A stretch of 64,000 nt of DNA, from contig SCQK01000014.1 in assembly GCA_004321885.1 (NCBI GenBank), forward strand, positions 75,646 to 139,645. Direction: 5' to 3'. This DNA comes from Patescibacteria group bacterium (lineage in GTDB: Bacteria; Patescibacteriota; Patescibacteriia; Magasanikbacterales; GWA2-37-8). A program made the position numbers and the translations under genes. This document shows positions 1 through 58,113 of this stretch, piece by piece. Below the pieces are notes generated by a model. The model was not told the DNA's origin, searched no databases, and saw nothing but the letters and a program-made list of their open reading frames with translations. The number at the start of each line of letters is the position of its first letter. The stretch's first letter is position 1.

Positions 1-159
1 TTGAACGCGCAAGGCCATACTGTAATTCTGGTAACGCACGAAAAATACACGGCCGAGCACGCCCAGCGCATTTTGCGCCTCAAGGACGGTGCGTTGGTGG
101 GCGATGAGAAGGTGAGAGACCGCCAGCTCGCGGACGGAAACGGCGAATTGAGGAAATGA
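1..159 (+). CDS. ABC transporter ATP-binding protein, C-terminal fragment (MacB/LolD-like); start lies upstream of the window
   Basis: Frame 1 reads [37 protein letters not shown] to a TGA at 157-159, the typical C-terminal end of an ABC ATPase (H-loop VTHE). Two FtsX-type permease genes follow immediately. Confidence 0.6.
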
Positions 160-8654: not shown

Positions 8655-9986
8655 TCAAATTTTTATTTCTTTGATTTTATTTTGTAAAGTTTGTTTTGAT
8701 TTTACTCGCACCCGCACAAATTCCGGCGTATATCCCGCGAAGTAGCCGGATTTTTTTTGTTCAAACAGTACTGGGCGGGTTTTGCCGGTGAATTTGGCCG
8801 CGAATTTTTTGGCCTCGGCTTTGGAAATTTTGAGCAGTTTTTTTACGCGTTCGGTTTTGATTTTGTCCTGCACTTGGTTTGGCATTTTGGCCGCGGCAGT
8901 GCCAGGGCGCGGAGAAAAAGGGAAAACGTGTATTTTGGCAAAGCCCCCGCCAAAGGCGGGTCCGTCTTGGGCGGACATTTTTTTTACAAACGCGCAGGTC
9001 TCGGTGAATTCTTTTTCGGTCTCGCCCGGGAAGCCGACGATAATGTCGGTGGTAAAAGAAAACAGGGGATTGGCCTGGCGCAGTTTTTGAACAATTCCAA
9101 GATATTGTTTCGCGTTATATCCGCGCCGCATCCGTTTGAGCATTGTGTCCGAGCCCGATTGCAAGGACAAATGCCAATGCGGCATCAATCTGTTTTGTCC
9201 CCCCTTTTTAAGGGGGGAATAAAAGGGGGGTAAGAATAATTTTATTAATTTTTCCGAAATCAGCCGCGGGTCCAGCGAACCGAGCCGGATGCGCTCTATT
9301 TTTGTTTCTCGTAAAATTTTTTTCAGCAGTTCGGCCAAGTCTCCCCCACTGCCAGAGGGGGGGACGAAGGGGGGGTGGGAGCTGTCTTTGTATTGGCAAA
9401 TATTTACTCCGGTCAGTACCGCTTCTTTATAGCCGTCTTTTTCCGCTTCTTTGATTTTTTTTATCACCGCCTCGGATGGCACACTTCGCGTTCGGCCGCG
9501 GAAAGATGGAATAATACAATAGGCGCAGTTAAAATTACAGCCGGTTTGGATTTTGATGAGAGTGCGTGTTCTATCATTGCGTAGCCGAGCGGTCGGATGT
9601 GTTCGTAGCGCCTTATGCCGCCGCAGCGGCATGGCCGAGGCCTCGCGGCCGAGGGAAGCGAGAACACATCCGACCGCTCCTCTGCGAGCTTCGCAATGGC
9701 TCACAACTTCCTCATTCCCTCTCGCCACAAAATCAATCTCGGGCAAATCCTTGTTTTCCAGACAGCCAACCGCGATTACGTACGCCCCGCGCCGTTTGGC
9801 CCGCCGAATCATCTCGCGCGTGGTCTGACTGGCGTCCACGGTCACTCCGCAGGCGCGCACCACGGCTACGTCTTCGTGCGCGCCAAAAAGCACGACAGAA
9901 AAACCTCGCTGTACGAGGTCTTTTTTCAGTTCTTCTGTCTCGGCTTGATTCAATTTGCACCCCAGGGTGTGGAATGAAATTTTCAC
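8655..9986 (-). CDS. radical-SAM methylthiotransferase, MiaB/MtaB/RimO family, carrying three in-frame repeat insertions
   Basis: MKISFHTLGCKLNQAETEEL (UPF0004 domain), the radical-SAM cysteine motif CNFNCAYCIIP, and a C-terminal TRAM-like end. Three GC-rich palindromic segments are inserted in frame. Confidence 0.8.
   Translation of the reverse strand: MKISFHTLGCKLNQAETEELKKDLVQRGFSVVLFGAHEDVAVVRACGVTVDASQTTREMIRRAKRRGAYVIAVGCLENKDLPEIDFVARGNEEVVSHCEARRGAVGCVLASLGREASAMPLRRHKALRTHPTARLRNDRTRTLIKIQTGCNFNCAYCIIPSFRGRTRSVPSEAVIKKIKEAEKDGYKEAVLTGVNICQYKDSSHPPFVPPSGSGGDLAELLKKILRETKIERIRLGSLDPRLISEKLIKLFLPPFYSPLKKGGQNRLMPHWHLSLQSGSDTMLKRMRRGYNAKQYLGIVQKLRQANPLFSFTTDIIVGFPGETEKEFTETCAFVKKMSAQDGPAFGGGFAKIHVFPFSPRPGTAAAKMPNQVQDKIKTERVKKLLKISKAEAKKFAAKFTGKTRPVLFEQKKSGYFAGYTPEFVRVRVKSKQTLQNKIKEIKI
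9196..9236. repeat. family-A GC palindrome (CCCCCCTTTTTAAGGGGGG...AAAAGGGGGG) in frame in the miaB-like gene
   Basis: Translates as PPFYSPLKKGGQ within the ORF. Confidence 0.7.
9336..9382. repeat. family-A element with CCCCC...GGGGGGG arms and a GGGGGGGTGGGAGC tail, in frame in the miaB-like gene
   Basis: Translates as HPPFVPPSGSGGD. The same tail motif recurs at 46831-46843 and 53875-53888. Confidence 0.7.
9585..9678. repeat. 94 bp structured insert inside the miaB-like gene: 18 bp perfect inverted repeat (GAGCGGTCGGATGTGTTC / GAACACATCCGACCGCTC) around a GC-rich 56 bp core
   Basis: Inverted repeat read directly from the sequence. It is translated in frame as EVVSHCEARRGAVGCVLASLGREASAMPLRRHKALRTHPTARL. 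Confidence 0.7.
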
Positions 9987-18327: not shown

Positions 18328-20157
18328 TTACTCCCACTCAATAGTTCCGGGTGGTTTGTTGGTGAGGTCGTAGAAGATGAAGTCCACGGCGTTTAGAGCG
18401 TGGATTTTTTTGATGATTTTTTTCAGAGTGGGCGAGGGTATGACGCCAAACGAGACGGTCATCGCTTCTTCTGATTCCACGGGTCGCAGGACAATTGATT
18501 CGCCGTGCTTGTGCCCAAACGGCACGAGCACCGTGGGCATTTGCCAGATTTTTTGGCATTGCTTGTCGGTCAAAATGGCGCTGTCGGCGATGTCATCTAT
18601 TTTTCGCAAAAGGTCCAGCCGTTTTTTGGTAAGATACGCTTTTTTCAGCGTGGCTTTTGGCAATGATTTTTTGTCGCCGGAAACAAGCAGTAGAACGCGG
18701 TTGATGTCTTTGTGGGCGTTGGTGATTTTAGGAGAAAGGGATTGATAATACCCCCACCCGGCCTCCCCCTTATAAAGGGGGAGGGGACCTGTGATAACGG
18801 CGGGGTGGGCGTAGGAGCGCTCGTCGCCTTGCACGCCCACGGATTTGATGGGGAGACGCCAAATTGTTGGCTCCACAGCCCCGACTAAGTCGGGGACTAT
18901 GGAGCCAGCGTCGTTTGATCCTTCCGAGCACAGACAGCGAATGGCCAGGCCCGGGCCCGGAAAGGGATGGCGGTTTATCAATTTTTGCGGCAGACCGAGC
19001 TTAAGGCCGATGGCGCGCACTTCGTCTTTGTACAAATCCTTAATCGGCTCTATGATTTTTCCTTCGGCGATCATTTGTTTTATCCGCGGTACGCGATTGT
19101 GATGCGTTTTTATGACGTCGGCGTTTTTGGTGCCGCCCGATTCAATAGTGTCGGGATAAATGGTGCCTTGGCCGACCAACCATTTGTCTCCGGTCAATTT
19201 TTTTCTACCAGACCCGCCTTTGGCGGGTTCGGCCATTACTTTGTCCACAATATCCAAAAACAAATCGCCGATGATTTTTCTTTTTTGTTCCGGATCAGAC
19301 ACGCCTTTGAGCGCGGATAAAAATTCTTTTTCGGCGTTATACACCCGCAAGTTGTCTCCCAGTCGCTTCAGAGCCGCTATGATTTTTTTTGTCTCATCCA
19401 ACCGCATCAGGCCGCTGTCAATGTGCAAGCCGAAAACCCTTTTTTCGCCAAGCACTTTTCGCAATAGGGCGAAACAAACCGTGGAATCAACGCCGCCGGA
19501 GACGAGCAAGAAAACATTTTTACCGCCCGCTTCCTTTTTTATATTTTTTTCAATTTGATCCAGCATTGTCTCTGTCGTCCAGTTTTTTTCCGCCCCGCAA
19601 ATATTTAAAATAAAATTGGCCAGAATTTTTTTTCCTTCTTTCGTGTGATTTACTTCCGGATGAAACTGAAAGCCGAAGAACTTTTTTGATAAATTTTGCA
19701 TGGCCGCCACCGAACGGTTGCCGGTTGAAGCGATTGGCGTAAAACCGAACGGCAGTTTGTCCACGTGATCGCCGTGGCTCATCCAGACAACGGTATTTTT
19801 ACTTACGCCCGAAAAAATCGGCGAGGCGCTGACGGATAATTTCGCCAAACCGTATTCACGCGCCTTGCCCGATTCAACGCGCCCGCCAAAAAAATCTGCC
19901 ATCAACTGATGCCCGTAGCACAGACCCAAAATCGGCGCGCTGAGCGTAAAAATTTTTTTATCAAAAGGCAAACGCGCGTCGCGCACCAGCGAACGCGGAC
20001 CGCCGGAAAGGATGATTCCACACGCGTTTTTCAATCGTTCGGCTTTGACGTTATTCGGGTAAATACGTGAAATAACGCCCAGTTCGCGCACGCGACGGGC
20101 GATGAGATGGGTGTACTGGGAACCGAAATCAAGGATGGCGATTTCACTTTTTGGCAT
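18328..20157 (-). CDS. guaA: GMP synthase (glutamine-hydrolysing) with a roughly 95 aa in-frame insertion derived from palindromic repeats
   Basis: ILDFGSQYTHLIARRVRELGV (GATase), SGGVDSTVCFALL (PP-loop) and C-terminal KPPGTIEWE are conserved. Start set at the ATG at 20157; the longer ORF to 20532 overlaps the guaB promoter. Confidence 0.85.
   Translation of the reverse strand: MPKSEIAILDFGSQYTHLIARRVRELGVISRIYPNNVKAERLKNACGIILSGGPRSLVRDARLPFDKKIFTLSAPILGLCYGHQLMADFFGGRVESGKAREYGLAKLSVSASPIFSGVSKNTVVWMSHGDHVDKLPFGFTPIASTGNRSVAAMQNLSKKFFGFQFHPEVNHTKEGKKILANFILNICGAEKNWTTETMLDQIEKNIKKEAGGKNVFLLVSGGVDSTVCFALLRKVLGEKRVFGLHIDSGLMRLDETKKIIAALKRLGDNLRVYNAEKEFLSALKGVSDPEQKRKIIGDLFLDIVDKVMAEPAKGGSGRKKLTGDKWLVGQGTIYPDTIESGGTKNADVIKTHHNRVPRIKQMIAEGKIIEPIKDLYKDEVRAIGLKLGLPQKLINRHPFPGPGLAIRCLCSEGSNDAGSIVPDLVGAVEPTIWRLPIKSVGVQGDERSYAHPAVITGPLPLYKGEAGWGYYQSLSPKITNAHKDINRVLLLVSGDKKSLPKATLKKAYLTKKRLDLLRKIDDIADSAILTDKQCQKIWQMPTVLVPFGHKHGESIVLRPVESEEAMTVSFGVIPSPTLKKIIKKIHALNAVDFIFYDLTNKPPGTIEWE
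18750..18786. repeat. family-A palindrome CCTCCCCCTTATAAAGGGGGAGG inside guaA
   Basis: Translated on the minus strand as PLPLYKGEAGW. Confidence 0.7.
18869..18906. repeat. family-C palindrome GGCTCCACAGCCCCGACTAAGTCGGGGACTATGGAGCC inside guaA
   Basis: Translated as AGSIVPDLVGAVEP. A near-identical copy sits at 58028-58065. Confidence 0.7.
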
Positions 20158-20212
20158 ACTTGCAATAAAATCGGCTATACTATACCATACAACCAATTTA
20201 CAGCCAATATTT

Positions 20213-23081: not shown

Positions 23082-23807
23082 GTGAAAATATTTATTCGCG
23101 ACGACGCGGACCAAAGCGTGTATAACGAAATTTTTAAGCTGGGCGAATATCGCGCCGCGGACAAAGCCATAAAAAACGCGCGTGAACCCGTTATAGACGT
23201 CGGCGCGCACGCCGGCTTTTTTAGTTTGTATTGCCGCGCGCTCAATCCCCAGGTGAAAATTTTCGCCATTGAACCCGAGCCGGAAAATTTTAAGCAGTTA
23301 CAAAAACACATCGCGGGCAACAATATTAAGGGCGTGGAGCCGGTGCCAGCCGCTTTGGCCGGCGAGACCGGGGAGAGGGAGTTGATAATATCCAAAGACA
23401 ATCATAATCATCGGCTCCGATTACCCCCTCCTCGCCTCCCCCTTATAAAGGGGGAGGACAATTTCCCTCCCCTTGATAAGGGGAGGGCGAGGGAGGGGTA
23501 CTGGGTCGCGGCTTTTTCCTTGGGTGATTTTTGCCGGCGTTATAAAATCAAAAACGTCGCTTTGCTCAAAATGGACATAGAAGGAGGAGAGGAAGAAACG
23601 TTCAAAAGTGCGAGCGCGTCTGATTTGGCTATGGTAAAAAACGTAATTTTGGAGTATCATGGTAATAACTTCGCGCCAATAGAACAAAAATTGCGCGAAA
23701 ACGGTTTTGGAGTACAGAAATTTCCGTCCAAGTTTGATAATAAAATGGGTTTTTTGTTTGCACGCAATAAAAGGTATGTCTCACCAAGCATGGATAGTGG
23801 CGGTTGA
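23082..23807 (+). CDS. FkbM-family methyltransferase with in-frame palindromic insertion
   Basis: VIDVGAHAGFFSL...FAIEPEPENF...LLKMDIEGGEEE is the FkbM signature. The insert is translated as HRLRLPPPRLPLIKGEDNFPPLDKGRAREGYW. GTG start. Confidence 0.55.
   Translation: MKIFIRDDADQSVYNEIFKLGEYRAADKAIKNAREPVIDVGAHAGFFSLYCRALNPQVKIFAIEPEPENFKQLQKHIAGNNIKGVEPVPAALAGETGERELIISKDNHNHRLRLPPPRLPLIKGEDNFPPLDKGRAREGYWVAAFSLGDFCRRYKIKNVALLKMDIEGGEEETFKSASASDLAMVKNVILEYHGNNFAPIEQKLRENGFGVQKFPSKFDNKMGFLFARNKRYVSPSMDSGG
23418..23500. repeat. tandem pair of family-A palindromes (CCTCCCCCTTATAAAGGGGGAGG and CCCTCCCCTTGATAAGGGGAGGG with a CGAGGGAGGGG tail)
   Basis: Lies in frame inside the methyltransferase gene. 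Confidence 0.7.
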
Positions 23808-27878: not shown

Positions 27879-29033
27879 TCATTTTTTCTCCTGCCCCAGC
27901 CAGTAGGCCGCCAGCAAAGTGGCGATGGGCACGGATAGGGCCACGCCGATACTGCCCACCAGGGTGCGCACGATTTCCGTGGCAATGGTTTCGTTGTTTA
28001 TGGCTTGGGCCCAAGAGAGCGGCGGGTCGCGTTGAATATGAAACAGCAGTAAAACAGGCAAAGACGCTCCGGCGTAGGTTAAAAACAAAGTATTGACCAA
28101 GGCGCCCAAATGCGCGTTGCCGATTTTATAGGCTGATGTAAAAACTTGCGCGGGCGACAGCGACGGATTCGCGTTTTTTATTTCCCGCACTGCTTCAATT
28201 TGCCCCACGATTACATCATCAAGCACGCCGATGGCGCCGATAAGTATGCCGGATAGTAACAGGCCCTGAAAATTTATGGCGCCCTTGTTCGCGCCGATTA
28301 AAAACATGGCCTCTTCCTGCCCCAGGCCGGAAAGCCGCGCCAGTTTCGTGAAAAGCCAAGACAGAAAAAACGTGGCCGCCAGCGAGAGCAAAACACTGAC
28401 AATGGCCAGGTGGGATTTTTTATTCCAGCCTTCGTTTAAGTAAATAATGATGGCCAGCACCGCGAAGGCGCCAAACAAGGCGATGGGCAGGGGACTGACG
28501 CCTTTCATGAGCAAGGGCACAATTATTTTGATAATTAAAAAAAAGCTGATGGCCAAGCCGACCAGGGCCAGCAGGCCTTTTTTCTTGCCCACCAAAAGAA
28601 CCACGAGCGCGAAAATGAGAGTCAGCCACAACAGGGGAGTCTGGCGCACGTAATCTACTGCGTAAAAATTTTCCGTGCCATCGCTGCGCTTGACATAATT
28701 TACCAAAACCTTGTCGTTGACTTTATAAACTCCGGACGAGAGCACATCCAAATCGGAAATGCCGCTCACATTAAATTCTTTGTCTTCCCATTTTCCCTCC
28801 AGCCCGCGCAGAAGCAGATTTTGTTGGACGGCTTGGCGGCCGTCCGGGCGCGTCGTTTCTTTTTGTTCCAGTATTTTTATTACTTTGGCTTTGAAAACCG
28901 CTTCTGTTTCATTGGCCGCATACGTACCGGCTGGCAGAAACAAAATAAAAAACAGCGTCAAAATAAAAATAATGAATCGTTTACGTCCCTCCCTTAGGGG
29001 GAGGATAGAAGGGGTATGCATGATGTTATACAA
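27879..29033 (-). CDS. YibE/F-like polytopic membrane protein
   Basis: Signal/TM start, a roughly 100 aa extracytoplasmic segment, then 7-8 TM helices, as in the YibE/F family. The TTG/ATG start region contains a family-A palindrome translated as PSILPLREGRKR. Confidence 0.5.
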   Translation of the reverse strand: MYNIMHTPSILPLREGRKRFIIFILTLFFILFLPAGTYAANETEAVFKAKVIKILEQKETTRPDGRQAVQQNLLLRGLEGKWEDKEFNVSGISDLDVLSSGVYKVNDKVLVNYVKRSDGTENFYAVDYVRQTPLLWLTLIFALVVLLVGKKKGLLALVGLAISFFLIIKIIVPLLMKGVSPLPIALFGAFAVLAIIIYLNEGWNKKSHLAIVSVLLSLAATFFLSWLFTKLARLSGLGQEEAMFLIGANKGAINFQGLLLSGILIGAIGVLDDVIVGQIEAVREIKNANPSLSPAQVFTSAYKIGNAHLGALVNTLFLTYAGASLPVLLLFHIQRDPPLSWAQAINNETIATEIVRTLVGSIGVALSVPIATLLAAYWLGQEKK

Positions 29034-29727: not shown

Positions 29728-29800
29728 TCTCCCCTTTACAAGGGGGAGGCTTGTCACCACACCAAAAATTTTGGTGTGGTGACAGAGAGGGGGTAATCCT
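29728..29800. repeat. nested palindromes: family-A CCCCTTTACAAGGGGGAGG, then CACCACACCAAAAATTTTGGTGTGGTG (an empty inverted-repeat pair of the tRNA-Gly element family), then AGAGAGGGGG
   Basis: Read directly in the intergenic region between the LRR gene and the SHOCT gene. Confidence 0.65.
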
Positions 29801-30262: not shown

Positions 30263-30511
30263 GTGTATACTGTTTACGCTATTTACAATCAAAAAAACGA
30301 TAAAATTTATATTGGACAAACAAAAGACATGGCCGAACGATTAAGGTTGCATAATGAAAAAATCCTTCTTGGTTATACTTATAGATTTGATGGAAATTGG
30401 AAATTAATTTATAGTGTACAGATCGAGAATAGACAAAAAGCTTTACAAAGAGAGAGACAACTTAAAAGTTTTAGAGGCAGAGAATTTATAAAACAATTTA
30501 TTCCGGGGTAG
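30258..30511 (+). CDS. GIY-YIG nuclease family protein (small, YhbQ/UPF0213-like)
   Basis: VYTVYAIYNQKNDKIYIGQTKDMAERLRLHNE is the GIY-YIG core. A GTG start at 30258 lies inside the tRNA-half copy, and the stop overlaps tRNA-Asn by 10 nt. Confidence 0.6.
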
Positions 30512-30573
30512 CGCAGCGGTAGCGCAGAGGACTGTTAATCCTTTGGTCGTGGGTTCGAATCCCACCCCCGGAG
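30502..30573 (+). tRNA. tRNA-Asn(GTT)
   Basis: TCCGGGG-TA-GCGCAGCGGTAGCGC-A-GAGGA-CTGTTAA-TCCTT-TGGTC-GTGGGTTCGAATCCCAC-CCCCGGA-G. Confidence 0.85.
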
Positions 30574-30578: not shown

Positions 30579-30707
30579 ACAAAAATACTGGTAATATCCA
30601 GTATTTTTGCTTTTGCTCGGAATACACGAAAAAATACGAACGGATTTGGGCGAATTTTAGGGCGCGGGCGAAATTCCCTCCCCACACCCCTTCCTTTCGC
30701 CCGCGAA
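30579..30707. repeat. left terminal inverted repeat of the island
   Basis: See the island feature. The outermost hairpin probably also terminates tRNA-Asn. Confidence 0.7.
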
Positions 30708-30883
30708 GCGAAACGGGGGCTCTGGTGGACAAAAACTGCCAAAGAACCCGTAAAAAATGTCGGCCGAACTTTATGTTGGCCAAAAGCAAACTTTTCTCTT
30801 TGATATTGAATTACGATTGTTAAAGTGATATAATCAAGTCAATGAGCGTCCCATTCTTGCTATCTTATGTATACTATCATACT

Positions 30884-31090
30884 ATGGAAGAAAAGAAAAC
30901 AATCGGCGAAAAAATAAAAAAATGGAGAGCGAAGAAAGATTTGACACAAGACGCCTTGGCAAAAAAGGCGGATATTCCATATAGCACGATTGCTAAAATT
31001 GAATCAGATGTTATTACGAGGCCAACAATACAGACAGTGCAAAAGCTGGCCGTTGGTTTGGGTATAACACTTGATGAATTATTAAAATAG
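30884..31090 (+). CDS. XRE-family HTH protein, probable C (controller) protein of the R-M module
   Basis: TIGEKIKKWRAKKDLTQDALAKKADIPYSTIAKIE is an HTH_XRE motif, about 70 aa. An extended -10 TGATATAAT sits at 30826-30834, and the gene lies immediately upstream of the methyltransferase (stop-ATG overlap). The ORF also opens at 30842, a possible leaderless start. Confidence 0.55.
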   Translation: MEEKKTIGEKIKKWRAKKDLTQDALAKKADIPYSTIAKIESDVITRPTIQTVQKLAVGLGITLDELLK

Positions 31091-31091
31091 T

Positions 31092-31973
31092 ATGGTTAAA
31101 GGTCACAAAGTGAAAAATGAAAAAATCGATAAAAAAATAGCTTTTGGTTGGTATGGCGGTAAGTTTAGTCATCTTGACTGGCTTTTGCCGCTGTTGCCGG
31201 AAACCGATCATTTTTGTGAGCCGTTTGGTGGCTCTGCTGCCGTTATCATAAACAGAAATCCTTCTTTAATCGAAACATATAATGATTTAGATGGCGAGGT
31301 AGTTAATTTCTTCAGAGTATTAAGGGAACATCCTAACGATCTTATAAGACAAATTGGGCTTACTCCATTTTCGAGGGAAGAATTCAAATATGCTATTGAA
31401 CACGAAGATGATAAAAATCTTTCAGATATTGAGAGGGCTAGGTCTTTTTTTATCCGCGCAAGGCAGGTTAGGACTGGACTTGCTCAAAAAGCTACTTCTG
31501 GTAGATGGGCAAATTGTAAATTAACTTCCAGAGCCGGAATGTCAGGTGCGGTCTCGAGGTGGTTGGGAAGTGTTGACGGGCTAACAGAGATTGCGGAAAG
31601 GCTTTTACGAATACAAATTGAAAATGCTCCTGCAATTGAAGTTGTAAGGCGATATGATAGCCCACAGACCTTATTTTACTGTGATCCTCCGTATACACAT
31701 GATTCTCGAGGTGATATAAATGCCTATAAATTTGAAATGGACAGGGATGCGCATGTCGAACTGGCCGAAACACTAAAACAGGTTAAGGGGTTAGTCGCTA
31801 TATCGGGTTACGACTCTCCCCTAATGAACGAGCTGTATCAAGGATGGAAAAAAATCGCTGGGCCAGTAAAAAATGCAAATTCTATACAACAACCTAGACA
31901 AGAAATTTTATGGGTTAATTATAATATTAATGATAAATCTTTATGGAAAAAGCAGCAAAGATCCTTGATATAA
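31092..31973 (+). CDS. N6-adenine DNA methyltransferase, Dam/D12 class
   Basis: FxGxG motif EPFGGSAAV and catalytic DPPY (LFYCDPPYTHDS). Confidence 0.8.
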   Translation: MVKGHKVKNEKIDKKIAFGWYGGKFSHLDWLLPLLPETDHFCEPFGGSAAVIINRNPSLIETYNDLDGEVVNFFRVLREHPNDLIRQIGLTPFSREEFKYAIEHEDDKNLSDIERARSFFIRARQVRTGLAQKATSGRWANCKLTSRAGMSGAVSRWLGSVDGLTEIAERLLRIQIENAPAIEVVRRYDSPQTLFYCDPPYTHDSRGDINAYKFEMDRDAHVELAETLKQVKGLVAISGYDSPLMNELYQGWKKIAGPVKNANSIQQPRQEILWVNYNINDKSLWKKQQRSLI

Positions 31974-33064
31974 TTTTGAAAAAAACTAATGGGCATCTAG
32001 AAAAACCTTTTATAAAAAATAGGGAGATTTTGCGGAAAATAGAATTTATTTCTCATAATATTCAAAATCGAGCCGGCGTCCGCCTTATTATGTCTTGCTT
32101 ACTGGCGAAACTTGACGATCCAAAAGTTGATGTAAGAAAACCTTATACGGAGATTGGCAGTCGTGATAGTTTTTCGGGCAGAACATATGACGAGGCCTAT
32201 GTCGGCAGTTTTATCACTAAACATCACTTGCCGTGTAATCCAACAACAGCGTTTTTGACGCCAGCTCTACGTAATAGAAATATTGTACTTACGCCAAAAG
32301 TAAATTTAGTCGGCAGGCCACCAGAAATTTATCAATACGTTCTCGACCTCCTAGAATTAGTATTTAAAGGATTTCTTGCCCCAGCCATTCTGCTTGCGGA
32401 AATAATGCGACAACTTGTTCTTTTACGAGATGAAAATCAAAAACGTATAAAATCTTTGTTAAAGAATCTCGGGAAAAATGGTAGTGTGCCTCTTTCGGGT
32501 GAAGACATAATAAAACTTATTGAGCAACATTTAAATTGCAAAGGAGCCAGCAGACTTCCCGTACTTATCGTGGCCGCTGCTTACAACACTATTGGAAATT
32601 TCATCCAAGAAAAAGTATTACCTATCTTTTCTCACAATTCTGCAGATAAACAAACTGGTGCGCTCGGCGATATACAAATTACGTTAATTAATGACGAGAA
32701 TGTAGTAACTAGTTATGAGATGAAGATGAAGAAGGTCACAAAGGACGACATTGATATCGCTCTGCAAAAAATTTCGGGAGTTAAGTACAAAATAGATAAT
32801 TATATTTTTATAACGACGGATATAATAGATGATTCGGTAAAAGAATATGCGAAATCACTTTATGAGCAAACCGGCGGAATAGAGATAGTTGTCTTAGATT
32901 GTATTAGTTTTCTTAGGCATTTTATTCATTTATTCCACCGCTTCAGATTGCCATATCTTGAAGAGTATCAAAAGTTGGTGATGGGTGAAGCAGACAGCGC
33001 GGTCAGTCAGCCCCTTAAAGAGGCATTTCTTGCTCTTCGACAGGCAACAGAAAGCGCGAATTAA
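31943..33064 (+). CDS. putative type II restriction endonuclease (PD-(D/E)xK-like)
   Basis: Overlaps the methyltransferase gene by 31 nt. GDIQITLINDENVVTSYEMK fits a D...ExK nuclease motif. Its position in a C-M-R array supports the call. Confidence 0.45.
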   Translation: MEKAAKILDIILKKTNGHLEKPFIKNREILRKIEFISHNIQNRAGVRLIMSCLLAKLDDPKVDVRKPYTEIGSRDSFSGRTYDEAYVGSFITKHHLPCNPTTAFLTPALRNRNIVLTPKVNLVGRPPEIYQYVLDLLELVFKGFLAPAILLAEIMRQLVLLRDENQKRIKSLLKNLGKNGSVPLSGEDIIKLIEQHLNCKGASRLPVLIVAAAYNTIGNFIQEKVLPIFSHNSADKQTGALGDIQITLINDENVVTSYEMKMKKVTKDDIDIALQKISGVKYKIDNYIFITTDIIDDSVKEYAKSLYEQTGGIEIVVLDCISFLRHFIHLFHRFRLPYLEEYQKLVMGEADSAVSQPLKEAFLALRQATESAN

Positions 33065-33145
33065 TGCAATAAAATAGTAAAAATGCAACCTTTTTCGGTG
33101 TGCGACGTTATATTATTGGGAGCTAAATATGACGATTATTAAAAA

Positions 33146-33802
33146 GTGTTTATCTTTATGGATATTGAAGCCGAAAAAGAACAAATCGTGAAGGCCCAAA
33201 GTAATATCAAGGAGTTTGCGCCTTTATTTGATGAATATTACCCCCAAATACTTAAATATTTAATAGGGCGTATCCGCAGTGTGGAAATTGCCCAGGATAT
33301 TGCATCTGTTACATTCTTGAAAGCCTTAGAGAATATAAAAAAATTTAACTGTCGGGGGATTAGCATATCATCGTGGCTGTACCGAATAGCTACGAACGAG
33401 GTCACTACATATTTTAGAAAAAATAAAACCCTTTCACTCGATGAGATAAGGGCATGTGAAAATTTTGATCCGCCCGCTATCGGCAACCCGTACATTGAAA
33501 TTGTCCAGGCGCAGGAAAAAATTGAAAATGATAAAAAATTTTTGAATCTACAAAATGAGATTCTAAAATTACATATAAATTATCAAGAAGTCATAATGTT
33601 GCGATATTTCGAGAAAAAACAAATAAATGAGATAGCAGAAATTTTAAATAAAAGCGAGGGGACGATTAAATCTCTCCTCCATCGAGGTTTGAAAAAATTA
33701 AAAAAAAATTTTCAACTACACAACAGTGACGCCAGAACGCAACCTTTTCAAAATAAAAACGTTCTAAATATAGAACAGGTACTAGTACCCATAAAATTAT
33801 GA
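33146..33802 (+). CDS. ECF-type sigma-70 family sigma factor encoded on the island
   Basis: Region 2 (FDEYYPQILKYLIGRIRSVEIAQDIASVTFLKALENIKKF...WLYRIATNEV) and region 4 (QEVIMLRYFEKKQINEIAEILNKSEGTIKSLLHRGLKKL). Confidence 0.8.
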   Translation: MFIFMDIEAEKEQIVKAQSNIKEFAPLFDEYYPQILKYLIGRIRSVEIAQDIASVTFLKALENIKKFNCRGISISSWLYRIATNEVTTYFRKNKTLSLDEIRACENFDPPAIGNPYIEIVQAQEKIENDKKFLNLQNEILKLHINYQEVIMLRYFEKKQINEIAEILNKSEGTIKSLLHRGLKKLKKNFQLHNSDARTQPFQNKNVLNIEQVLVPIKL

Positions 33803-34041
33803 ATGACCTACAGGAGTTAGAAAAAATGTTAGAGGAGATCGAGGTTCCGTCTGTGGACTTAAATATAAATAAGGAGTTGTTGAAGAGTTACCTATTTAGA
33901 AATGAGCGGGTTGAATTTGAGAGCAGCAAACAAGATAACTCCATATTTGCCCCGCAGTTTGAATTTTTACCTTGTCCGTCATTTACGTATGATTATTTAA
34001 TTAATGATTTTAATTCAACTACATATGTCCTTAGTTATTAA
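33799..34041 (+). CDS. hypothetical small protein (positioned like an anti-sigma factor or adaptor)
   Basis: 80 aa. It overlaps the sigma gene stop and the next gene's start. No motif was recognised. Confidence 0.3.
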   Translation: MNDLQELEKMLEEIEVPSVDLNINKELLKSYLFRNERVEFESSKQDNSIFAPQFEFLPCPSFTYDYLINDFNSTTYVLSY

Positions 34042-34987
34042 TGTAACCACACCCGAAGGAATTGTGTTAGCAGCTGATAGTCGTCAAAGCTACCGCAACC
34101 AAAAAGGCGCAGCCCGTATAGGCAGCGATAACGCTTCGAAACTGTTTAAATTAAACGACCGGATAGCTGTTGCAGCTACAGGCATGGCCTTTTTACCTGA
34201 AAAAGGAATGCTTAAAAATATAAGTAAATTTATAGAACAATTTAAAAAAATTGAAATTGAAAAAATAGAAAATATATCAGTTAAGGAAACGGCAGAAAAA
34301 ATTCATGAATATTTCAAAAGTATATACAAAGTAGAAGACCAGATAAGGGCAATTGAGCAGCAAATTACAAATGATATCGCAAAAAACGGGGGTAAAATAT
34401 TGAGAACAGACGCTAAAAAAAATATAGTTATTGTAGAGTTTGAAGATGCAAATGGGAAAAAAGGTGTTGCCAACGTAGTTCTGGAGCCCTTGAATTTCAT
34501 GGTGGCTGGTTTTAATAGCAATTTCGATTCGCACGAGGTTTACACGTGTAGAATACCGGGGGGGATAGAATTAAAAAGAAATAGTAGCGTGGATAATAAA
34601 GAGTATGGCGCCTCGTGGGAAGGGCAAAATGATGTGGTAGCGCGAATTGTCTTGGGTTTTGATCCTAGGATAGGGAATATAAAATTTGTACAAGAAGCAG
34701 CGGAAAAAATTGGGAAGGATCAAATTAATGAACAGCTTAGAAATTTAGAATACGCAATACAATGGGGCACCATGACTTTGCAAGATGCTATCGACTTTTG
34801 TGTGTTAATTATAAAAACAACCTCAGCCATTCAAAGATTTTCGGATGGCATTAAAGCTGATCCTGGTGCAATCCCTGGCGTGGGCGGCTCCATCGATGTG
34901 GTGGTCATCAGACCAGAAGAGGGGTTTAATTGGGTAAGTAAAAAGAAGTTATCTATCAATGAAAATTGTTCAGAAATAAATTTTTAA
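34025..34987 (+). CDS. proteasome beta / HslV-like Ntn-hydrolase with C-terminal extension
   Basis: VINV|TTPEGIVLAADSRQSY...ASKLFKLNDRIAVAATGMA matches the N-terminal Thr nucleophile and GxxxD/R pattern of the proteasome beta/HslV family. The start could also be the ATG at 34004. Confidence 0.5.
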   Translation: MSLVINVTTPEGIVLAADSRQSYRNQKGAARIGSDNASKLFKLNDRIAVAATGMAFLPEKGMLKNISKFIEQFKKIEIEKIENISVKETAEKIHEYFKSIYKVEDQIRAIEQQITNDIAKNGGKILRTDAKKNIVIVEFEDANGKKGVANVVLEPLNFMVAGFNSNFDSHEVYTCRIPGGIELKRNSSVDNKEYGASWEGQNDVVARIVLGFDPRIGNIKFVQEAAEKIGKDQINEQLRNLEYAIQWGTMTLQDAIDFCVLIIKTTSAIQRFSDGIKADPGAIPGVGGSIDVVVIRPEEGFNWVSKKKLSINENCSEINF

Positions 34988-35011
34988 TAAATTATTTTTA
35001 ACTAATAGTTT

Positions 35012-35656
35012 ATGAAAAAACCTCTTTATATAATGCTCCATCACTCGGCTGTTTCATACGACAAAAATCCAGATCAATTTGATGCAAATAATAATTACCA
35101 TAAAGCACAGTGGAATTTTAAAGGTTCCCTTGGTTTTTATCTTGGTTACAATTACGAAATATCTAAAACCGGCCTGACACGACAAGCCCGAGCAGACGGT
35201 GAAGTTACGGCAGCATGCTATCAAAAAGATATGAACGATGGTAGGTGTATACATATTTGTATGGATGGCCACTTCGATCAAGAAAAACCAACGCCAGAAC
35301 AAATAGAGGCGTTAAGAAAATTGCTAAAACAAAAATTCGAGGAGCACAATATCAAAAGAGAGAACTTAATTTTTCATAGGGATTACGCCCCTAAAACCTG
35401 TCCGGGGTCTAATTTAGACATAAAAAATATTCGCGATCTTGCCACACCGGAAGGCAATGAATTGTACGCAGCCGCATTGACGCTTATGAAAGAGAATAAT
35501 TCACCAGCTATTTACTTTTTCGGTTTTGATAATATGTGGCACGGACTTGGGGATATGGATATTTTAAAATCATTAAAAGGAAACTATAATCCAGTAGAAA
35601 TAATGAAAGTAGAAAATCTCCCTGATAATATTTCATTTTCAATAGGCAAACAATAA
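35012..35656 (+). CDS. N-acetylmuramoyl-L-alanine amidase, PGRP/amidase_2 type (endolysin-like)
   Basis: MLHHSA...H...GYNYEI...HICMDGHFD...IFHRDYAPKTCPG matches the zinc-binding pattern of T7-lysozyme-type amidases. Confidence 0.75.
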   Translation: MKKPLYIMLHHSAVSYDKNPDQFDANNNYHKAQWNFKGSLGFYLGYNYEISKTGLTRQARADGEVTAACYQKDMNDGRCIHICMDGHFDQEKPTPEQIEALRKLLKQKFEEHNIKRENLIFHRDYAPKTCPGSNLDIKNIRDLATPEGNELYAAALTLMKENNSPAIYFFGFDNMWHGLGDMDILKSLKGNYNPVEIMKVENLPDNISFSIGKQ

Positions 35657-35777
35657 AAAGCTGCGTTTCCGCCAAAGCCGAGCGAAGCTCGGTATCCCGC
35701 CGCAACAAGTAGCGTCGGGATGAAAAACTGGAAATCGTCATTCGTCGGAGATCCCTCCGCCCAAGGCGGGCAGGCAC

Positions 35778-35905
35778 CGCGGGCGGAAGGAAGGGGTGTG
35801 GGGAGGGAATTCCGCCCGCGCCCTAAAATTCGCCCAAATCCGTTCGTATCTTTTCATAAGTCCCGAGCAAAAGTAAAAATACTGGTAATATCCAGTATTT
35901 TTTGT
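35778..35905. repeat. right terminal inverted repeat of the island
   Basis: Reverse complement of the left inverted repeat. Confidence 0.7.
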
Positions 35906-46508: not shown

Positions 46509-47063
46509 TTAGAGCCTGTCCCGAACTTGTTTCGGGAGGGAGGATAGAGGAGGGAGTATGTGTATTTTTCTCTTGTTCCCTCCCGCGTATTCAATTCTGA
46601 CGGTTATTATTTTCGGCCCTTGGCCGATATTTTTCAAAAGCTCTTTTATTTTCTCCGGCCACTCAATCGCGCAAATCGTATCCGGCCTGCCCAAATAATC
46701 CAGCGCGCCGATTTCCACAAGTTCGTGCTCATTTTTTAGCCGGTAGGTATCTATATGGACGAATTTTTGTGTCCCCCTGCCCCCACACCAAAATTTTTGG
46801 TGTGGGGGCCTGCCCGAGGGGGACTTTGAGGGGGGTGGGAGCAAGTACACATTCATCAACGCGAACGTCGGACTGGTAATTTTTTCTTTGACGCCCAAGC
46901 CGGCGGCAATGCCTTTCACCAATGCAGTTTTGCCCGCGCCCAGTTCGCCGTAAAGCAATAAAATATCGCCGCCGCGCAATTTTCGCGCCAAAGCCGCGCC
47001 AAACGCAAATGTTTCTTTTTCGTTTTTCGTGATAATTTTTTGATTGTTTTGACGGGTTGACAT
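46509..47063 (-). CDS. tsaE: tRNA threonylcarbamoyladenosine biosynthesis protein TsaE with a 23 aa in-frame palindromic insertion
   Basis: LLYGELGAGKTALVKGIAAGLG...SPTFALMNVY...HIDTYRL. Start at MSTRQNN; the ORF extends upstream to 47138. The insert LLPPPSKSPSGRPPHQKFWCGGRGTQ lies between the two conserved blocks. Confidence 0.7.
   Translation of the reverse strand: MSTRQNNQKIITKNEKETFAFGAALARKLRGGDILLLYGELGAGKTALVKGIAAGLGVKEKITSPTFALMNVYLLPPPSKSPSGRPPHQKFWCGGRGTQKFVHIDTYRLKNEHELVEIGALDYLGRPDTICAIEWPEKIKELLKNIGQGPKIITVRIEYAGGNKRKIHILPPLSSLPKQVRDRL
46771..46843. repeat. composite palindromic insert: outer GTCCCCCTG...CGAGGGGGAC, enclosing CCCCCACACCAAAATTTTTGGTGTGGGGG, plus a GAGGGGGGTGGGAGC tail
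   Basis: The inner palindrome equals the two 14 bp inverted repeats of the tRNA-Gly-carrying element joined head to head. The outer part matches the grpE insert at 53838-53888. Confidence 0.7.
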
Positions 47064-47270
47064 AGAAAAGCGATTACCTGTAATATATAGATGGTGGGCG
47101 CGGAGCGGCGGAAAAAATGTTCTACAACTTTTTTTCATAGGTTCGCCAATATCTGTTTGGCCCTTGGGTCAAACGTGCGGCTTACCACCTACTATCACGG
47201 GACACGTGACGCCGCTTGCGCGCTTAACCCTTTTTTGATTTTACAGTAAAACTGAAAAAAAGCAACGGGT

Positions 47271-51216: not shown

Positions 51217-51244
51217 TGTCATTCCCGCGAAAGCGGGAATCCAG
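51217..51244. repeat. family-B element tgtcattcccgcgaaagcgggaatccag, directly after a TATAAT at 51211-51216 and 6 nt before the ATG at 51250
   Basis: Read directly. Confidence 0.7.
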
Positions 51245-52879: not shown

Positions 52880-52913
52880 CTGGATTCCCCCGTACTTAGT
52901 CGGGGGAATGACA
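52880..52913. repeat. family-B element (inverted) ctggattcccccgtacttagtcgggggaatgaca ending 12 nt before the hrcA ATG
   Basis: Read directly. Confidence 0.7.
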
Positions 52914-53614: not shown

Positions 53615-54121
53615 ATGGCTGAAGAAGAAAAAAAAGAGATAGAGGAAAAGGAAGAGGGAGCGCCTTGTGAAAAGTGTGAAGAGCACAAAGCCAATTGGAA
53701 GAGGGCGTTGGCCGATTACAAGAATTTGCAAAACGAGATCGCCCGATGCAAATCAGATTGGGCGAAAATGAGCGAGGCGCAGATTTTGCAGGAGTTTATT
53801 CCGGTGTATGATAATCTGAAACGGGGGCTGGCGGTTTCTCTCCCCCTGCTCGAGGGGGAGAAGCCCGAAGAACAGAGGGGGTGGGAGCAGTTGAAACAGG
53901 GGATAGAGTACGTGAAAAAGCAATTTGGAGAGGTCTTGAAAGCGCACGGAGTGGAGGAAATAAAAACCATCGGCGAACAGTTTGACCCGCGTTGGCACGA
54001 AGCCGTGGGCGAGGAAGAAGCCGATGGCGCCGAGGCGGGCGCGATTGTTCGCGAGGTGGATTCGGGATATAAAGTGGGCGACAGGGTCATAAAACCGGCG
54101 AAAGTAATCGTGGCGAAATAG
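53615..54121 (+). CDS. grpE: nucleotide exchange factor GrpE with in-frame palindromic insert
   Basis: WKRALADYKNLQNE...EFIPVYDNLKRGLAV...VLKAHGVEEI...VREVDSGYKVGDRVIKPAKV. The insert SLPLLEGEKPEEQRGWEQ is encoded by the palindrome at 53838-53888. Confidence 0.8.
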   Translation: MAEEEKKEIEEKEEGAPCEKCEEHKANWKRALADYKNLQNEIARCKSDWAKMSEAQILQEFIPVYDNLKRGLAVSLPLLEGEKPEEQRGWEQLKQGIEYVKKQFGEVLKAHGVEEIKTIGEQFDPRWHEAVGEEEADGAEAGAIVREVDSGYKVGDRVIKPAKVIVAK

Positions 54122-57977: not shown

Positions 57978-58113
57978 GGCTCCATAGTTGCGAAGCACTA
58001 TGGAGCTCAAATGTTGGTCAGCAATTCGGCTCCACAGCCCCGACTGGGTCGGGGACTATGGAGCCAGCCATAGGATAACACTGGATTCCCCCGACTAAGT
58101 CGGGGGAATGACA
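57978..58113. repeat. array of three palindromic elements (a C-type with alternative core at 57978-58006, a C-type at 58028-58065, and a B-type at 58081-58113) filling the dnaJ / ECF sigma intergenic region
   Basis: Read directly. The B-type ends 2 nt before the ATG at 58116. Confidence 0.7.

What the first reader, a model, noticed from the sequence alone, without database searches (positions are those of the whole stretch)
53838..53888. Same composite palindrome inserted in frame in grpE and tsaE
grpE has TCTCCCCCTGCTCGAGGGGGAGA...GAGGGGGTGGGAGC. tsaE at 46771-46843 has GTCCCCCTGC[inner palindrome]CCTGCCCGAGGGGGAC...GAGGGGGGTGGGAGC. Both have the same arms, the same GGGTGGGAGC tail and the same spacing, and both keep the host frame, giving SLPLLEGEKPEEQRGWEQ in grpE and LLPPPSKSPSGRPPHQKFWCGGRGTQ in tsaE. 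A third copy in the FkbM methyltransferase (23418-23500) and a fourth in the 27879-29033 N-terminus behave the same way. Frame preservation in several independent housekeeping genes suggests either selection after insertion or an insertion mechanism biased to multiples of three.
Basis: seen in the sequence. Interest (0 to 1): 0.65.

Follow-up and report, generated by a model that had tools for sequence, protein, structure and literature searches.

The report
In-frame palindromic repeat in Patescibacteria genes
A 36-50-base G/C-rich hairpin-plus-tail DNA repeat sits in frame inside grpE, tsaE and a MiaB-like gene of this Patescibacteria genome. The same element occurs in dozens of unrelated housekeeping genes across that group, much as the larger Rickettsia palindromic elements do.

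Summary
grpE (53839-53888) and tsaE (46771-46842) carry copies of one repeat family: a hairpin CTCCCCCT/AGGGGGAG, a short spacer, then the tail AGGGGGTGGGAG(C). I found a third copy in a MiaB-like gene (9340-9382). The spacing is not the same in the copies. The FkbM and YibE/F palindromes belong to other families.

The window is from a Patescibacteria MAG. Pattern scans found the same element at row-limit numbers in many Patescibacteria lineages. It lies inside continuous ORFs of PheT, IleS, LeuS, UvrA, GltX, KsgA, Fpg, TatD, QueA and others. It is as frequent in genes as random positions are (64% against 64%). It has no target-site duplication and no strand bias.

Copies in genes are not enriched for 3n core length compared with copies outside long ORFs. 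One Cys/Trp-coding sense frame is missing (0 of 38), which argues that the element is translated and filtered.

In PheT the element occupies the same codon position in separate, well-supported clades whose sister sequences lack it. Its DNA is almost identical there although synonymous sites are saturated.

Best reading: a REP/RPE-like repeat that is gained and lost, tolerated in surface loops. The copying mechanism is unresolved.

The parts
53839..53888 (+). Family-A element in grpE, sense to the gene. Hairpin TCTCCCCCT/AGGGGGAGA at 53839-53861 with loop GCTCG. Spacer AGCCCGAAGAACAG at 53862-53875, a decayed mini-hairpin of the GAAG-loop type. Tail AGGGGGTGGGAGC at 53876-53888. Translated as SLPLLEGEKPEEQRGWE.
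   Evidence: the same element at the same site in orthologues L001 and L002; spacer mini-hairpin class
46771..46842 (+). Family-A element in tsaE, antisense to the gene. Outer arms GTCCCCCT (46771-46778) and AGGGGGAC (46817-46824). A family-E palindrome is nested in the loop (46779-46809) with CCTGC repeated on both sides. Spacer TTTG. Tail AGGGGGGTGGGAGC (46829-46842). Translated on the minus strand as LLPPPSKSPSGRPPHQKFWCGGRG.
   Evidence: 23-aa insertion compared with PDB TsaE 6nak_D; low-confidence coil between two strands in the AlphaFold model
9340..9382 (+). TCTCCCCCACTGCCAGAGGGGGGGAC-GAAG-GGGGGGGTGGGAGC, antisense inside the MiaB-like gene, translated as SSHPPFVPPSGSGGD.
   Evidence: net +6 aa compared with MiaB 7mjv
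53615..54121 (+). grpE host gene, in an hrcA-grpE-dnaK-dnaJ cluster
   Evidence: Pfam GrpE; alignment A1; PDB alignments show the loop is 9-11 aa longer than in 4ani and 3a6m
46509..47138 (-). tsaE host gene
   Evidence: Pfam TsaE in two stretches; alignment A2 shows this loop is hypervariable across Patescibacteria
8655..9986 (-). MiaB/RimO-like radical-SAM methylthiotransferase host gene. It also carries a second, unrelated palindrome at 9198-9230.
   Evidence: Pfam UPF0004 + Radical_SAM; PDB alignment
9198..9230 (.). Other in-frame palindrome in the MiaB-like gene, TCCCCCCTTTTTAAGGGGGGAATAAAAGGGGGG (PPFYSPLKKG). It corresponds to a 10-aa insertion compared with MiaB 7mjv.
23422..23500 (.). 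Family-B composite in the FkbM methyltransferase gene (23082-23807 +). Two hairpins, CCTCCCCCTT-ATA-AAGGGGGAGG and CCCTCCCCTT-GAT-AAGGGGAGGG, lie within outer arms CCCCTCC/GGAGGGG. It is an in-frame insertion of about 20 aa and belongs to a different family from grpE/tsaE.
   Evidence: alignment A3
18753..18910 (.). Two further in-frame palindromes inside guaA (18328-20160 -). One is a family-B hairpin at 18762-18784 within arms CCCACCC/GGGTGGG. The other is a family-C composite, GGCTCCACAGCCCCGACTAAGTCGGGGACTATGGAGCC, at 18869-18906; it recurs between genes at 58028-58068.
29756..29780 (.). Second copy of the family-E palindrome (ACCACACCAAAAATTTTGGTGTGGT). It lies upstream of the likely start (M34) of an LRR protein gene and is flanked by a family-B hairpin and a G-rich tail.
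28988..29004 (.). CCTCCC-TTAGG-GGGAGG hairpin at codons 10-16 of the YibE/F ORF (27879-29033 -). A different family; coding status uncertain.

Best explanation
The three window copies belong to a family of very small repeats (36-50 nt), found in many Patescibacteria lineages, that are gained and lost at the DNA level. Each has an 8-9-bp G/C hairpin (CTCCCCCT-loop-AGGGGGAG), a 4-6-nt spacer that can hold a second mini-hairpin, and a G-rich tail (AGGGGGTGGGAG) that is an imperfect direct repeat of the 3' arm.

It behaves like a REP/RPE-type selfish or semi-selfish palindromic repeat. New copies appear in unrelated places, and other small palindromes nest inside it. The consensus has no stop codon in any of its six frames and translates to Pro/Gly/Glu/Arg-rich peptides. 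Copies that land in frame in surface loops of proteins are therefore tolerated and translated. Copies that break the frame, or that encode the Cys/Trp-rich frame, are removed by selection.

Shown: family membership, location in frame inside real genes, presence/absence among close relatives, absence of a target-site duplication, absence of a strand bias, and the frame spectrum.

Inferred: translation of the element, and that it is copied rather than conserved for a function.

Unresolved: the copying mechanism. The same codon site is filled in separate clades, and about 10 codons on the tail side are co-altered. This points to site-directed or homology-guided copy-in (template switching, ectopic conversion, or transfer of a filled allele) rather than random cut-and-paste transposition.
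For: (1) Family membership: three copies in 64 kb against 0 in 100 shuffles.

(2) Real host genes: the element lies inside Pfam domains of PheT (B5, FDX-ACB, tRNA_bind), IleS, GltX, Fpg, TatD, QueA and the CCA-adding enzyme. It also lies inside the ORFs of LeuS (two copies), UvrA, KsgA, PrmC, UvrC and MurB.

(3) A DNA-level rather than peptide-level unit: both orientations and five of the six frames are used.

(4) Not excluded from genes: 64/100 copies are intragenic, against 64% of random positions in the same loci.

(5) Gain and loss: in PheT, filled alleles sit in three separate clades (bootstrap 100, 100 and 97), each with empty sisters. The empty alleles share an ancestral-looking EE.G or xEGx motif. 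L249 keeps a TCTCCC footprint at site S1.

(6) The element DNA is 38/39 identical between L021 and L123, although third-codon-position identity across the gene is 0.42. The chance of 12 or more matches at 13 third positions is 2.4e-4.

(7) Genome-specific variants: loop TCTCGGA in 3 of 4 copies of JBAYJC01; GAGAT[A/C]AAG plus a ggaggggtgggag extension in 3 of 3 copies of JACPJN01; GGGGGAC in 2 of 3 and a trailing C in 3 of 3 window copies.

(8) Nesting: the family-E palindrome inside the tsaE hairpin loop has a separate copy at 29756-29780.

(9) Tolerated position: the TsaE insert is a low-pLDDT coil between two beta strands. The same loop carries other, unrelated inserts in other Patescibacteria.

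(10) Selection on the peptide: the sense frame encoding SPCPRGSWRGWE is found in 0 of 38 sense copies. (2/3)^38 is about 2e-7.
Against: No transposase or other trans-acting enzyme was identified. There is no target-site duplication and only a 5-nt terminal inverted repeat, so it is not a classical MITE. Orientation shows no bias against local GC skew (59:64), unlike IS200/IS605- or REP-type single-strand elements.

The near-identity of the sequence across deeply diverged Patescibacteria lineages is hard to explain for purely neutral junk. It requires ongoing spread, homogenisation or selection.

Filling of exactly the same codon in separate clades is unexpected for random insertion. The microhomology idea fits PheT site S2 (native GAAGGGGAA where the arm GAGGGGGAG sits) but not the GrpE filled/empty pair.

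Translation of the insert is inferred, not observed.
Confidence: 0.6

Rival explanations
1. The element is a host-beneficial cis-acting DNA signal, for example a binding or structural site for a conserved Patescibacteria protein, as REP/BIME sequences bind gyrase and IHF. These genomes are about 90% coding, so such a signal has to sit inside ORFs. It would be kept by purifying selection on the DNA, and its stop-free, Pro/Gly-rich coding capacity would be an adaptation to that location.
For: The consensus is extremely well conserved across many candidate phyla. The element DNA is nearly invariant where synonymous sites are saturated. The hairpin arms are conserved while loops and spacers vary in the three orthologous grpE copies. 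Spacer mini-hairpins keep complementarity with differing stems. Orientation is random relative to transcription (38:26), which argues against an mRNA-level role but is compatible with a DNA-level one.
Against: Closest relatives often lack the element at the same site with no sign of compensation. Copies decay and are deleted (L249 footprint; L001 tail interrupted by 9 nt). No positional regularity or association with a gene class was seen. The distribution relative to genes is that of random positions. No binding protein is known.
Confidence: 0.2
2. The filled alleles at a given site are related by descent. A segment holding the element and a short flank is passed between orthologous genes of different lineages by DNA uptake and homologous recombination, in a homing-like way. 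The element would then spread by allele transfer rather than by de novo insertion.
For: At both PheT sites, identity between the filled allele and its empty sister dips in the 10 codons on the tail side (0.63 and 0.59, against 0.83-0.93 further out). Identity to the other filled allele rises in the same stretch (0.67 against 0.47; 0.73 against 0.59). Both S2-filled alleles use the Ser codon TCT where the two sister-clade empty alleles that have Ser there use AGC.
Against: Flanking identity between the donor and recipient lineages is only about 65%, too low for ordinary RecA recombination. This route cannot explain how the element reached dozens of non-homologous genes. No endonuclease is associated with it. 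The sample is two sites.
Confidence: 0.12
3. The segments are ordinary, vertically inherited coding sequence. Under this reading the palindrome is a by-product of codons for a conserved peptide such as SLPLPEGE...RGWE in GrpE, and the resemblance between genes is compositional chance.
For: 8 of the 120 nearest GrpE homologues share the peptide at the same position. The W of RGWE aligns with a W common in that GrpE clade.
Against: The same DNA is read in five different frame and orientation combinations in unrelated proteins. The pattern occurs 3 times against 0 in shuffles. The nearest relatives of P0012 lack it. None of 120 TsaE homologues has it.
Confidence: 0.03
4. The inserts are not translated. 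They would be removed from the mRNA or bypassed by the ribosome, like the GC-rich 'byp' elements of Magnusiomyces mitochondria or the gap in T4 gene 60.
For: Stable G/C hairpins of -15 to -43 kcal/mol; small size.
Against: In every gene-hosted copy whose ORF I read or scanned, the frame is kept open across the element and no stop occurs. Bypass or excision would not require that. Depletion of one coding frame (0 of 38) implies that the peptide is seen by selection. No Rfam family matches at the element.
Confidence: 0.03

Closest known systems
Rickettsia palindromic elements (RPE; Ogata et al. 2000, 2002, as summarised in review PMC10969869)
   Same: Repeated palindromic DNA found in frame inside unrelated housekeeping genes, apparently translated, placed where the fold tolerates it, also present outside genes, and found in small host-dependent genomes.
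   Different: RPEs are about 150 bp, fall into ten families, are restricted to Rickettsia, and each encodes one conserved peptide. This element is 36-50 nt. It is read in five of the six frame and orientation combinations. It is found in many Patescibacteria candidate phyla, with related forms in other phyla. There is no sequence similarity to RPEs.
REP / BIME / REPIN elements with RAYT transposases (GTAG- and CGTC-tagged REPs, PMC3733652)
   Same: Size (20-40 nt), G/C-rich imperfect palindrome with an asymmetric tag that gives polarity, high copy number, no target-site duplication, nested and composite arrangements.
   Different: REPs are extragenic by definition, whereas this element is as common inside genes as random positions are. 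The tag here is a 12-nt G-rich repeat of the 3' arm lying 4-6 nt after the hairpin, not a GTAG or CGTC tetranucleotide next to the stem. No RAYT gene was looked for beyond this window.
Bacterial MITEs that make in-frame fusions (e.g. Coxiella QMITE1/2, PMC5896051; Correia, ERIC)
   Same: Non-autonomous repeats that sometimes lie in frame in ORFs.
   Different: MITEs are 100-400 bp with terminal inverted repeats and target-site duplications, and are mostly intergenic or at gene ends. Here no TSD was found, the terminal inverted repeat is only 5 nt, and copies sit in the middle of conserved domains.
Small dispersed repeats of cyanobacteria (Elhai et al. 2008) and mitochondrial GC clusters / byps of yeasts (Lang et al. 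2014). Both from memory, not checked here.
   Same: Very small (about 20-50 nt) G/C-rich hairpin repeats that nest within one another and can lie inside coding sequence.
   Different: Different taxa and sequences. Byps break the frame and are bypassed, whereas these keep it.

Membership tests
Rickettsia palindromic elements (RPE) | Palindromic repeat inserted in frame in unrelated protein-coding genes | tested here: met
   Window: grpE, tsaE and the MiaB-like gene. Other genomes: more than 20 host gene families, checked with Pfam.
Rickettsia palindromic elements (RPE) | Length about 100-150 bp, each family encoding one conserved peptide in one frame | tested here: not met
   Core of 36-51 nt. 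Five frame and orientation combinations are used, giving different peptides.
Rickettsia palindromic elements (RPE) | Sequence homology to RPE-1..10; Rickettsia host | tested here: not met
   The host is a Patescibacteria MAG. Sequence homology to RPE families was not tested, because no RPE sequences were available to compare. Rfam has no match at the element.
REP/REPIN-RAYT | Extragenic location | tested here: not met
   64 of 100 classifiable copies are inside long ORFs, equal to random positions. All 3 window copies are intragenic.
REP/REPIN-RAYT | GTAG or CGTC tetranucleotide directly flanking the stem | tested here: not met
   The 5' flank is T(T/C)T (88% T at -1). The 3' side is a spacer followed by AGGGGGTGGGAG. 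The tail contains GTGG, but about 10 nt from the stem.
REP/REPIN-RAYT | A RAYT (Y1 transposase) gene in the genome, flanked by REPs | not tested
   Only 64 kb of the genome was available and only 26 of its ORFs were scanned with Pfam. None of them was a Y1 transposase.
REP/REPIN-RAYT | Small G/C-rich imperfect palindrome, high copy number, no TSD | tested here: met
MITE (DDE-transposase derived) | Target-site duplication flanking each copy | tested here: not met
   Adjacent direct repeats of 2-8 nt occur no more often than with shuffled flanks, in 123 copies. The only duplication seen (CCTGC) flanks the nested family-E palindrome in tsaE.
MITE (DDE-transposase derived) | Terminal inverted repeats of 10 nt or more; length 50-500 bp | tested here: not met
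   Only the terminal CTCCC...GGGAG is inverted; length is 36-51 nt.
IS200/IS605-type single-strand elements | Orientation bias relative to the replication strand | tested here: not met
   The strand carrying the G-rich tail has positive local GC skew in 59 loci and negative skew in 64 (p=0.72). Local skew is only a proxy for replication direction.
Known structured RNA families (Rfam 15) | Match to a covariance model | tested here: not met
   The window at gathering thresholds gives only 6 tRNAs. The E-value search of L021, L017 and L048 gives nothing at the element.

The most novel reading that the evidence does not exclude
Patescibacteria may harbour a previously undescribed kind of coding-compatible repeat. 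It is a hairpin-plus-tail element of about 36-42 nt whose sequence is conserved across many candidate phyla. It is stop-free in all six frames and distributed without regard to gene boundaries. It is copied into the very same codon of essential genes in separate lineages. That would imply a site-directed, homology-guided or enzyme-guided insertion or conversion system, or a DNA-level signal forced into ORFs by genome compaction. Either would differ from transposition as known for MITEs, REPs or RPEs.
Probability: 0.3. Interest if true: 0.85.

Novelty: new variant of a known kind. Interest (0 to 1): 0.68.

Why it matters
Repeats that live inside essential genes have so far been treated as a curiosity of Rickettsia and a few other bacteria. 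If one tiny element pervades aminoacyl-tRNA synthetases, chaperones and repair proteins across Patescibacteria, several things follow.

- It is a hidden source of loop insertions and length variation in proteins of a very large bacterial group.
- It can confound alignments, phylogenies, structure prediction and gene calling for these genomes.
- It marks recent gain and loss events that could be used to study recombination and DNA uptake in organisms that are hard to culture.
- The recurrence at identical codons gives a concrete handle on an unknown copying mechanism.

Tried and rejected
- Exact-sequence look-ups of the window's GrpE found no contig on record.
- Rfam gave no family at the element.
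- Fold energies against shuffles were uninformative. Shuffled C-run/G-run sequences fold as well (z from -1.0 to +0.5). The exception was the tsaE composite (z -3.7 for the mRNA strand, -2.7 for the + strand).
- The target-site duplication test was negative.
- There was no orientation bias against GC skew or against transcription.
- 'The element's intrinsic length is 3n' could not be settled. The core is modally 36 nt, but the 38-nt class is also common in genes, and the 5' boundary (T/Y/T) is ambiguous, giving 37-42 nt. Net gains against empty sisters were +27, +30 and +30 nt.
- Microhomology-guided insertion fits PheT S2 well (native GAAGGGGAA). It fits S1 weakly and the GrpE pair L002/L248 not at all.
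- The NJ tree of GrpE on 124 columns was too weak to decide between one and several gains.
- A PDB search for FkbM found nothing, so the representative-library search was used instead.
- Five literature searches for the sequence, the peptides, or CPR/Patescibacteria combined with in-frame palindromes found nothing relevant. Ogata 2002 (PMC186582) is not held.
- guaA insert boundaries could not be fixed, because the printed alignment was to human GMPS.
Full report
OBSERVATION. grpE (53615-54121 +; Pfam GrpE) holds a 9-bp-stem hairpin, TCTCCCCCT-GCTCG-AGGGGGAGA, at 53839-53861. A 14-nt spacer follows, then AGGGGGTGGGAGC at 53876-53888. tsaE (46509-47138 -; Pfam TsaE split into two stretches) holds GTCCCCCT...AGGGGGAC. 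A perfect 15-bp-arm palindrome is nested in its loop (46779-46809). A 4-nt spacer follows, then AGGGGGGTGGGAGC ending at 46842. Both ORFs read through.

The motif GGGGGA-N(2-20)-GGGGGTGGGAGC occurs three times in the window and never in 100 dinucleotide-preserving shuffles. This is therefore a repeat family, not chance. The 'same spacing' claim is wrong (14 nt against 4 nt).

The FkbM and YibE/F palindromes belong to other families, of the type CCCTCCCCTT-N3-AAGGGGAGGG and without the tail. The FkbM one is nevertheless a genuine in-frame insertion of about 20 aa compared with most homologues (A3).

The window contains at least five families of small G/C palindromes. About half of the 27 clusters lie in the roughly 8% of sequence between genes, and the rest are inside ORFs.

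ARE THEY INSERTIONS? Against Thermotoga TsaE (6nak_D), the window protein has 23 residues where the solved protein has one. That equals 69 nt, which is the composite element. In an AlphaFold model (mean pLDDT 82) these residues form a low-confidence coil between strands 95-99 and 125-130. Across Patescibacteria TsaE this loop carries 0 to about 55 extra residues of unrelated, repeat-like sequence (A2). None of the 120 nearest TsaE homologues has this element. The tsaE copy is therefore a lineage-specific gain in a permissive hot spot.

In GrpE the loop is only 9-11 aa longer than in solved GrpEs. In the MiaB-like protein the net gain is 6 aa. In those two genes the element overlies a pre-existing variable loop.

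The inner tsaE palindrome has a second copy between genes at 29756-29780 and relatives in other loci. In tsaE it is flanked by a repeated CCTGC and adds 33 nt. The 'composite' is therefore one small palindrome nested inside another.

ORIGIN AND DISTRIBUTION. The window comes from a Patescibacteria MAG whose nearest GrpE is 62% identical. Orthologous grpE genes in L001 and in a Magasanikbacteria genome (L002) carry the same DNA element at the same codon, with different loops and spacers. 8 of the 120 nearest GrpE homologues have it.

About 44 of these are the Patescibacteria form, (T)CTCCCCCTGCCCGAGGGGGAG-N4-6-AGGGGGTGGGAG. They come from records labelled Andersen-, Uhr-, Magasanik-, Buchanan-, Doudna-, Falkow-, Nomura-, Cerri- and Saccharibacteria and Paceibacterota. 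Related hairpin-plus-tail forms occur in Dehalococcoidia (dozens per genome), Proteobacteria and cyanobacteria. I did not examine their context.

INSIDE REAL GENES. In the other genomes the element sits in continuous ORFs that Pfam identifies as the following. PheT carries two copies in one gene, in the B5 and FDX-ACB domains. The other hosts are IleS, LeuS (two copies), UvrA, GltX, KsgA, Fpg, PrmC, TatD, QueA, MurB, UvrC, CCA-adding enzyme, an epimerase and radical-SAM enzymes.

The same DNA is read in both orientations and several frames. Sense: LPLPEGE.EGVG or SPPARGG..GGG. Antisense: LPPP..PPRAGGE, SHPLQLPLGQGE or PTPS.SPSGRGR. The unit is therefore DNA, not a peptide module. The consensus has no stop codon in any of the six frames.

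THE FRAME QUESTION. Of 100 classifiable metagenome copies, 64 lie well inside long ORFs, 16 are ambiguous and 20 are outside. Random positions in the same loci give 64%, 24% and 12%. Unlike REPs, the element is not excluded from genes.

Core length from TCCCCC to GGGAG is modally 36 nt, with a second class at 38 nt and expanded forms (45, 47, 51 nt) whose spacers are extra mini-hairpins. Mod-3 classes are 43/5/16 inside genes and 15/1/4 outside.

The flanks show only a T-rich 5' trinucleotide and no target-site duplication. Among intragenic copies, 38 are sense and 26 antisense. Sense phases are 17, 21 and 0. The missing phase would encode SPCPRGSWRGWE; (2/3)^38 is about 2e-7. One variant without Cys in that frame exists in LeuS. 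This is evidence that the insert is translated and that selection filters peptides after insertion. Orientation is unrelated to local GC skew (59:64).

GAIN, LOSS AND RECURRENCE. I examined PheT of Andersenbacteria and relatives. P0241 carries the element at site S1 (B5 domain) and site S2 (FDX-ACB domain). P0244 carries it at S1 only and P0253 at S2 only. Most of the other 19 sequences examined show a short, mutually similar loop at these sites (EE.G at S1, xEGx at S2). A few carry other, unrelated inserts there.

A 549-column NJ tree with 200 bootstraps places P0244 with empty P0252 (100%), P0253 with empty P0257 (100%), and P0241 with P0243 and P0242 (97%).

At the DNA level the S1 elements of L021 and L123 are 38/39 identical, although third-codon identity across the genes is 0.42. 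The chance of this is 2.4e-4. The sister pairs give net gains of +27 nt (S2; 89% aa identity) and +30 nt (S1; 81%). The GrpE pair L002/L248 (73%) shows a 42-nt element in place of 12 native nt. L249 (P0243) retains ATT TCT CCC | ACT TGG at S1, which looks like a deletion footprint. It also carries a related hairpin at a third site. Copies within one genome share private variants. The family is therefore dynamic: it is gained, homogenised or recently copied, and lost.

HOW IT WORKS. What is shown: this is a repeated DNA element that enters unrelated genes in frame, is polymorphic among relatives, lacks a TSD and a strand bias, and is subject to a peptide-level filter. What I infer: it is a REP/RPE-like selfish or semi-selfish repeat that persists in genes for three reasons. 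It is tiny, it is stop-free, and it encodes flexible Pro/Gly-rich loops. Frame preservation is then mainly survivorship.

The copying step is unresolved. Random transposition does not predict filling of the same codon in separate clades. At S2 the native GAAGGGGAA lies exactly where the element's arm GAGGGGGAG sits, which suggests homology-guided copy-in, but the GrpE pair shows no such homology. At both PheT sites the 10 codons on the tail side diverge from the sister and resemble the other filled allele. This fits either a longer inserted tract or transfer of a filled allele.

A host-function reading, in which a conserved DNA signal is forced into ORFs in 90%-coding genomes, would explain the extreme sequence conservation and remains a serious rival. 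Vertical inheritance of ordinary coding sequence is contradicted by the multi-frame use. Removal or bypass of the insert is contradicted by the open frames and the frame depletion.

COMPARISON WITH KNOWN ELEMENTS. Functionally the closest are the Rickettsia palindromic elements (about 150 bp, ten families, 44 in-frame integrations in R. conorii; PMC10969869). This element is three to four times smaller, is read in five frame and orientation combinations, and spans many candidate phyla. It shares size, polarity tag, nesting and lack of TSD with REPs (PMC3733652) but fails their defining extragenic location and GTAG/CGTC tag. It fails the MITE criteria (TSD, TIR, size). No Rfam family matches.

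Full-text searches for the sequence, its peptides, or Patescibacteria combined with in-frame palindromic repeats found nothing. The library lacks most subscription papers, so prior description cannot be excluded.

LIMITS.
- Gene context outside the window was judged from stop-to-stop ORFs plus Pfam on 20 hosts.
- Both collection scans were truncated at 120 loci.
- Element boundaries are uncertain by 1-5 nt.
- The recurrence argument rests on two PheT sites and one GrpE pair.
- No expression or proteomic data were available.

Noticed in passing
window 30648-35820: A low-GC island (36-39% GC against about 50% elsewhere) lies next to a tRNA gene (30502-30573). It is bracketed by 43-nt inverted repeats, CGCGGGCGAAATTCCCTCCCCACACCCCTTCCTTTCGCCCGCG (30663-30705) and its complement-like partner (35778-35820). 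It encodes a Dam-type N6-adenine methyltransferase, a SacI-like restriction endonuclease, an ECF-type sigma factor and an N-acetylmuramoyl-L-alanine amidase. It is probably an integrated mobile island carrying a restriction-modification system.
   Followed up: partly
window 29039-29063, 58085-58109, 52884-52909, 51221-51240: Intergenic repeats of the form GTCATTCCCCCGACTTAGTCGGGGGAATCCAG, plus ATTCCCGCGAAAGCGGGAAT. They fit the ATTCCC-N8-GGGAAT shape that I recall for Neisseria dRS3 repeats. This is another palindrome family, seen here only between genes.
   Followed up: no
window 18869-18906 and 58028-58068: A 38-41-nt nested palindrome, GGCTCCACAGCCCCGAC..GTCGGGGACTATGGAGCC, occurs once in frame inside guaA and once between genes. 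This is a second example in the window of one repeat family living both inside and outside genes.
   Followed up: partly
alignment A2 (TsaE homologues P0122-P0230): The TsaE loop between SPTFxLMNxY and LVHIDTYRL is an insertion hot spot across Patescibacteria. Different lineages carry different repeat-like peptides there, for example SRESGNLGRPPLNDMDPRLSPPQRD, VIPAVESPLGRGRGG, SRKAGISAKPKLFNRV and SEIRNRTSDVRNPKSEI.
   Followed up: partly
L003, L010, L015, L016, L025, L027, L073, L083 and others (Dehalococcoidia chromosomes OZ241913.1 and OZ241849.1): A related repeat, CCCC-AATTCATCCC-TCCCCCC-TTTT-GGGGGGAGG-TTAGG-TGGGGGGTGGGAG, occurs in dozens of copies per genome, up to six within 2 kb. Some copies share identical 3' flanks. 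This is a high-copy relative of the motif in another phylum; its context was not examined.
   Followed up: no
L116:3728-6811 (UvrA) and L112:1-1761 (GltX), Uhrbacteria JACPJN01: Two unrelated genes of one genome carry the same longer composite insert in the same frame: APTPPSHPL(L/F)ISPSGRGRDSSGRGGK.VSPP.. UvrA also holds several copies of another inserted peptide (HNPPQPSLTLREG...PPLRVRGG). Some CPR proteins appear to be riddled with several repeat families.
   Followed up: no
window 4018-4052: CCCCTCCC-N19-GGGAGGGG lies inside the C-terminal part of dnaG (2643-4502), after the DnaB-binding domain hit. It may be another in-frame palindrome. Its insertion status was not checked.
   Followed up: no
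L048:1586-1622: A weak sub-threshold Rfam hit to Whalefall-1 RNA (23.4 bits against a gathering score of 37, E=0.022) lies about 20 nt upstream of an element copy. It is probably chance.
   Followed up: no
L249:501-2411, codons 446-457: PheT of P0243 has a related hairpin, CTCCCCCTTACCAAGGGGGAG-GCA-GAGGGGACC (VLPLTKGEAEGT), at a third site that the other PheT sequences examined do not fill. It also has a different insert (PPAGGLRAKPLKG) at S2.
   Followed up: partly
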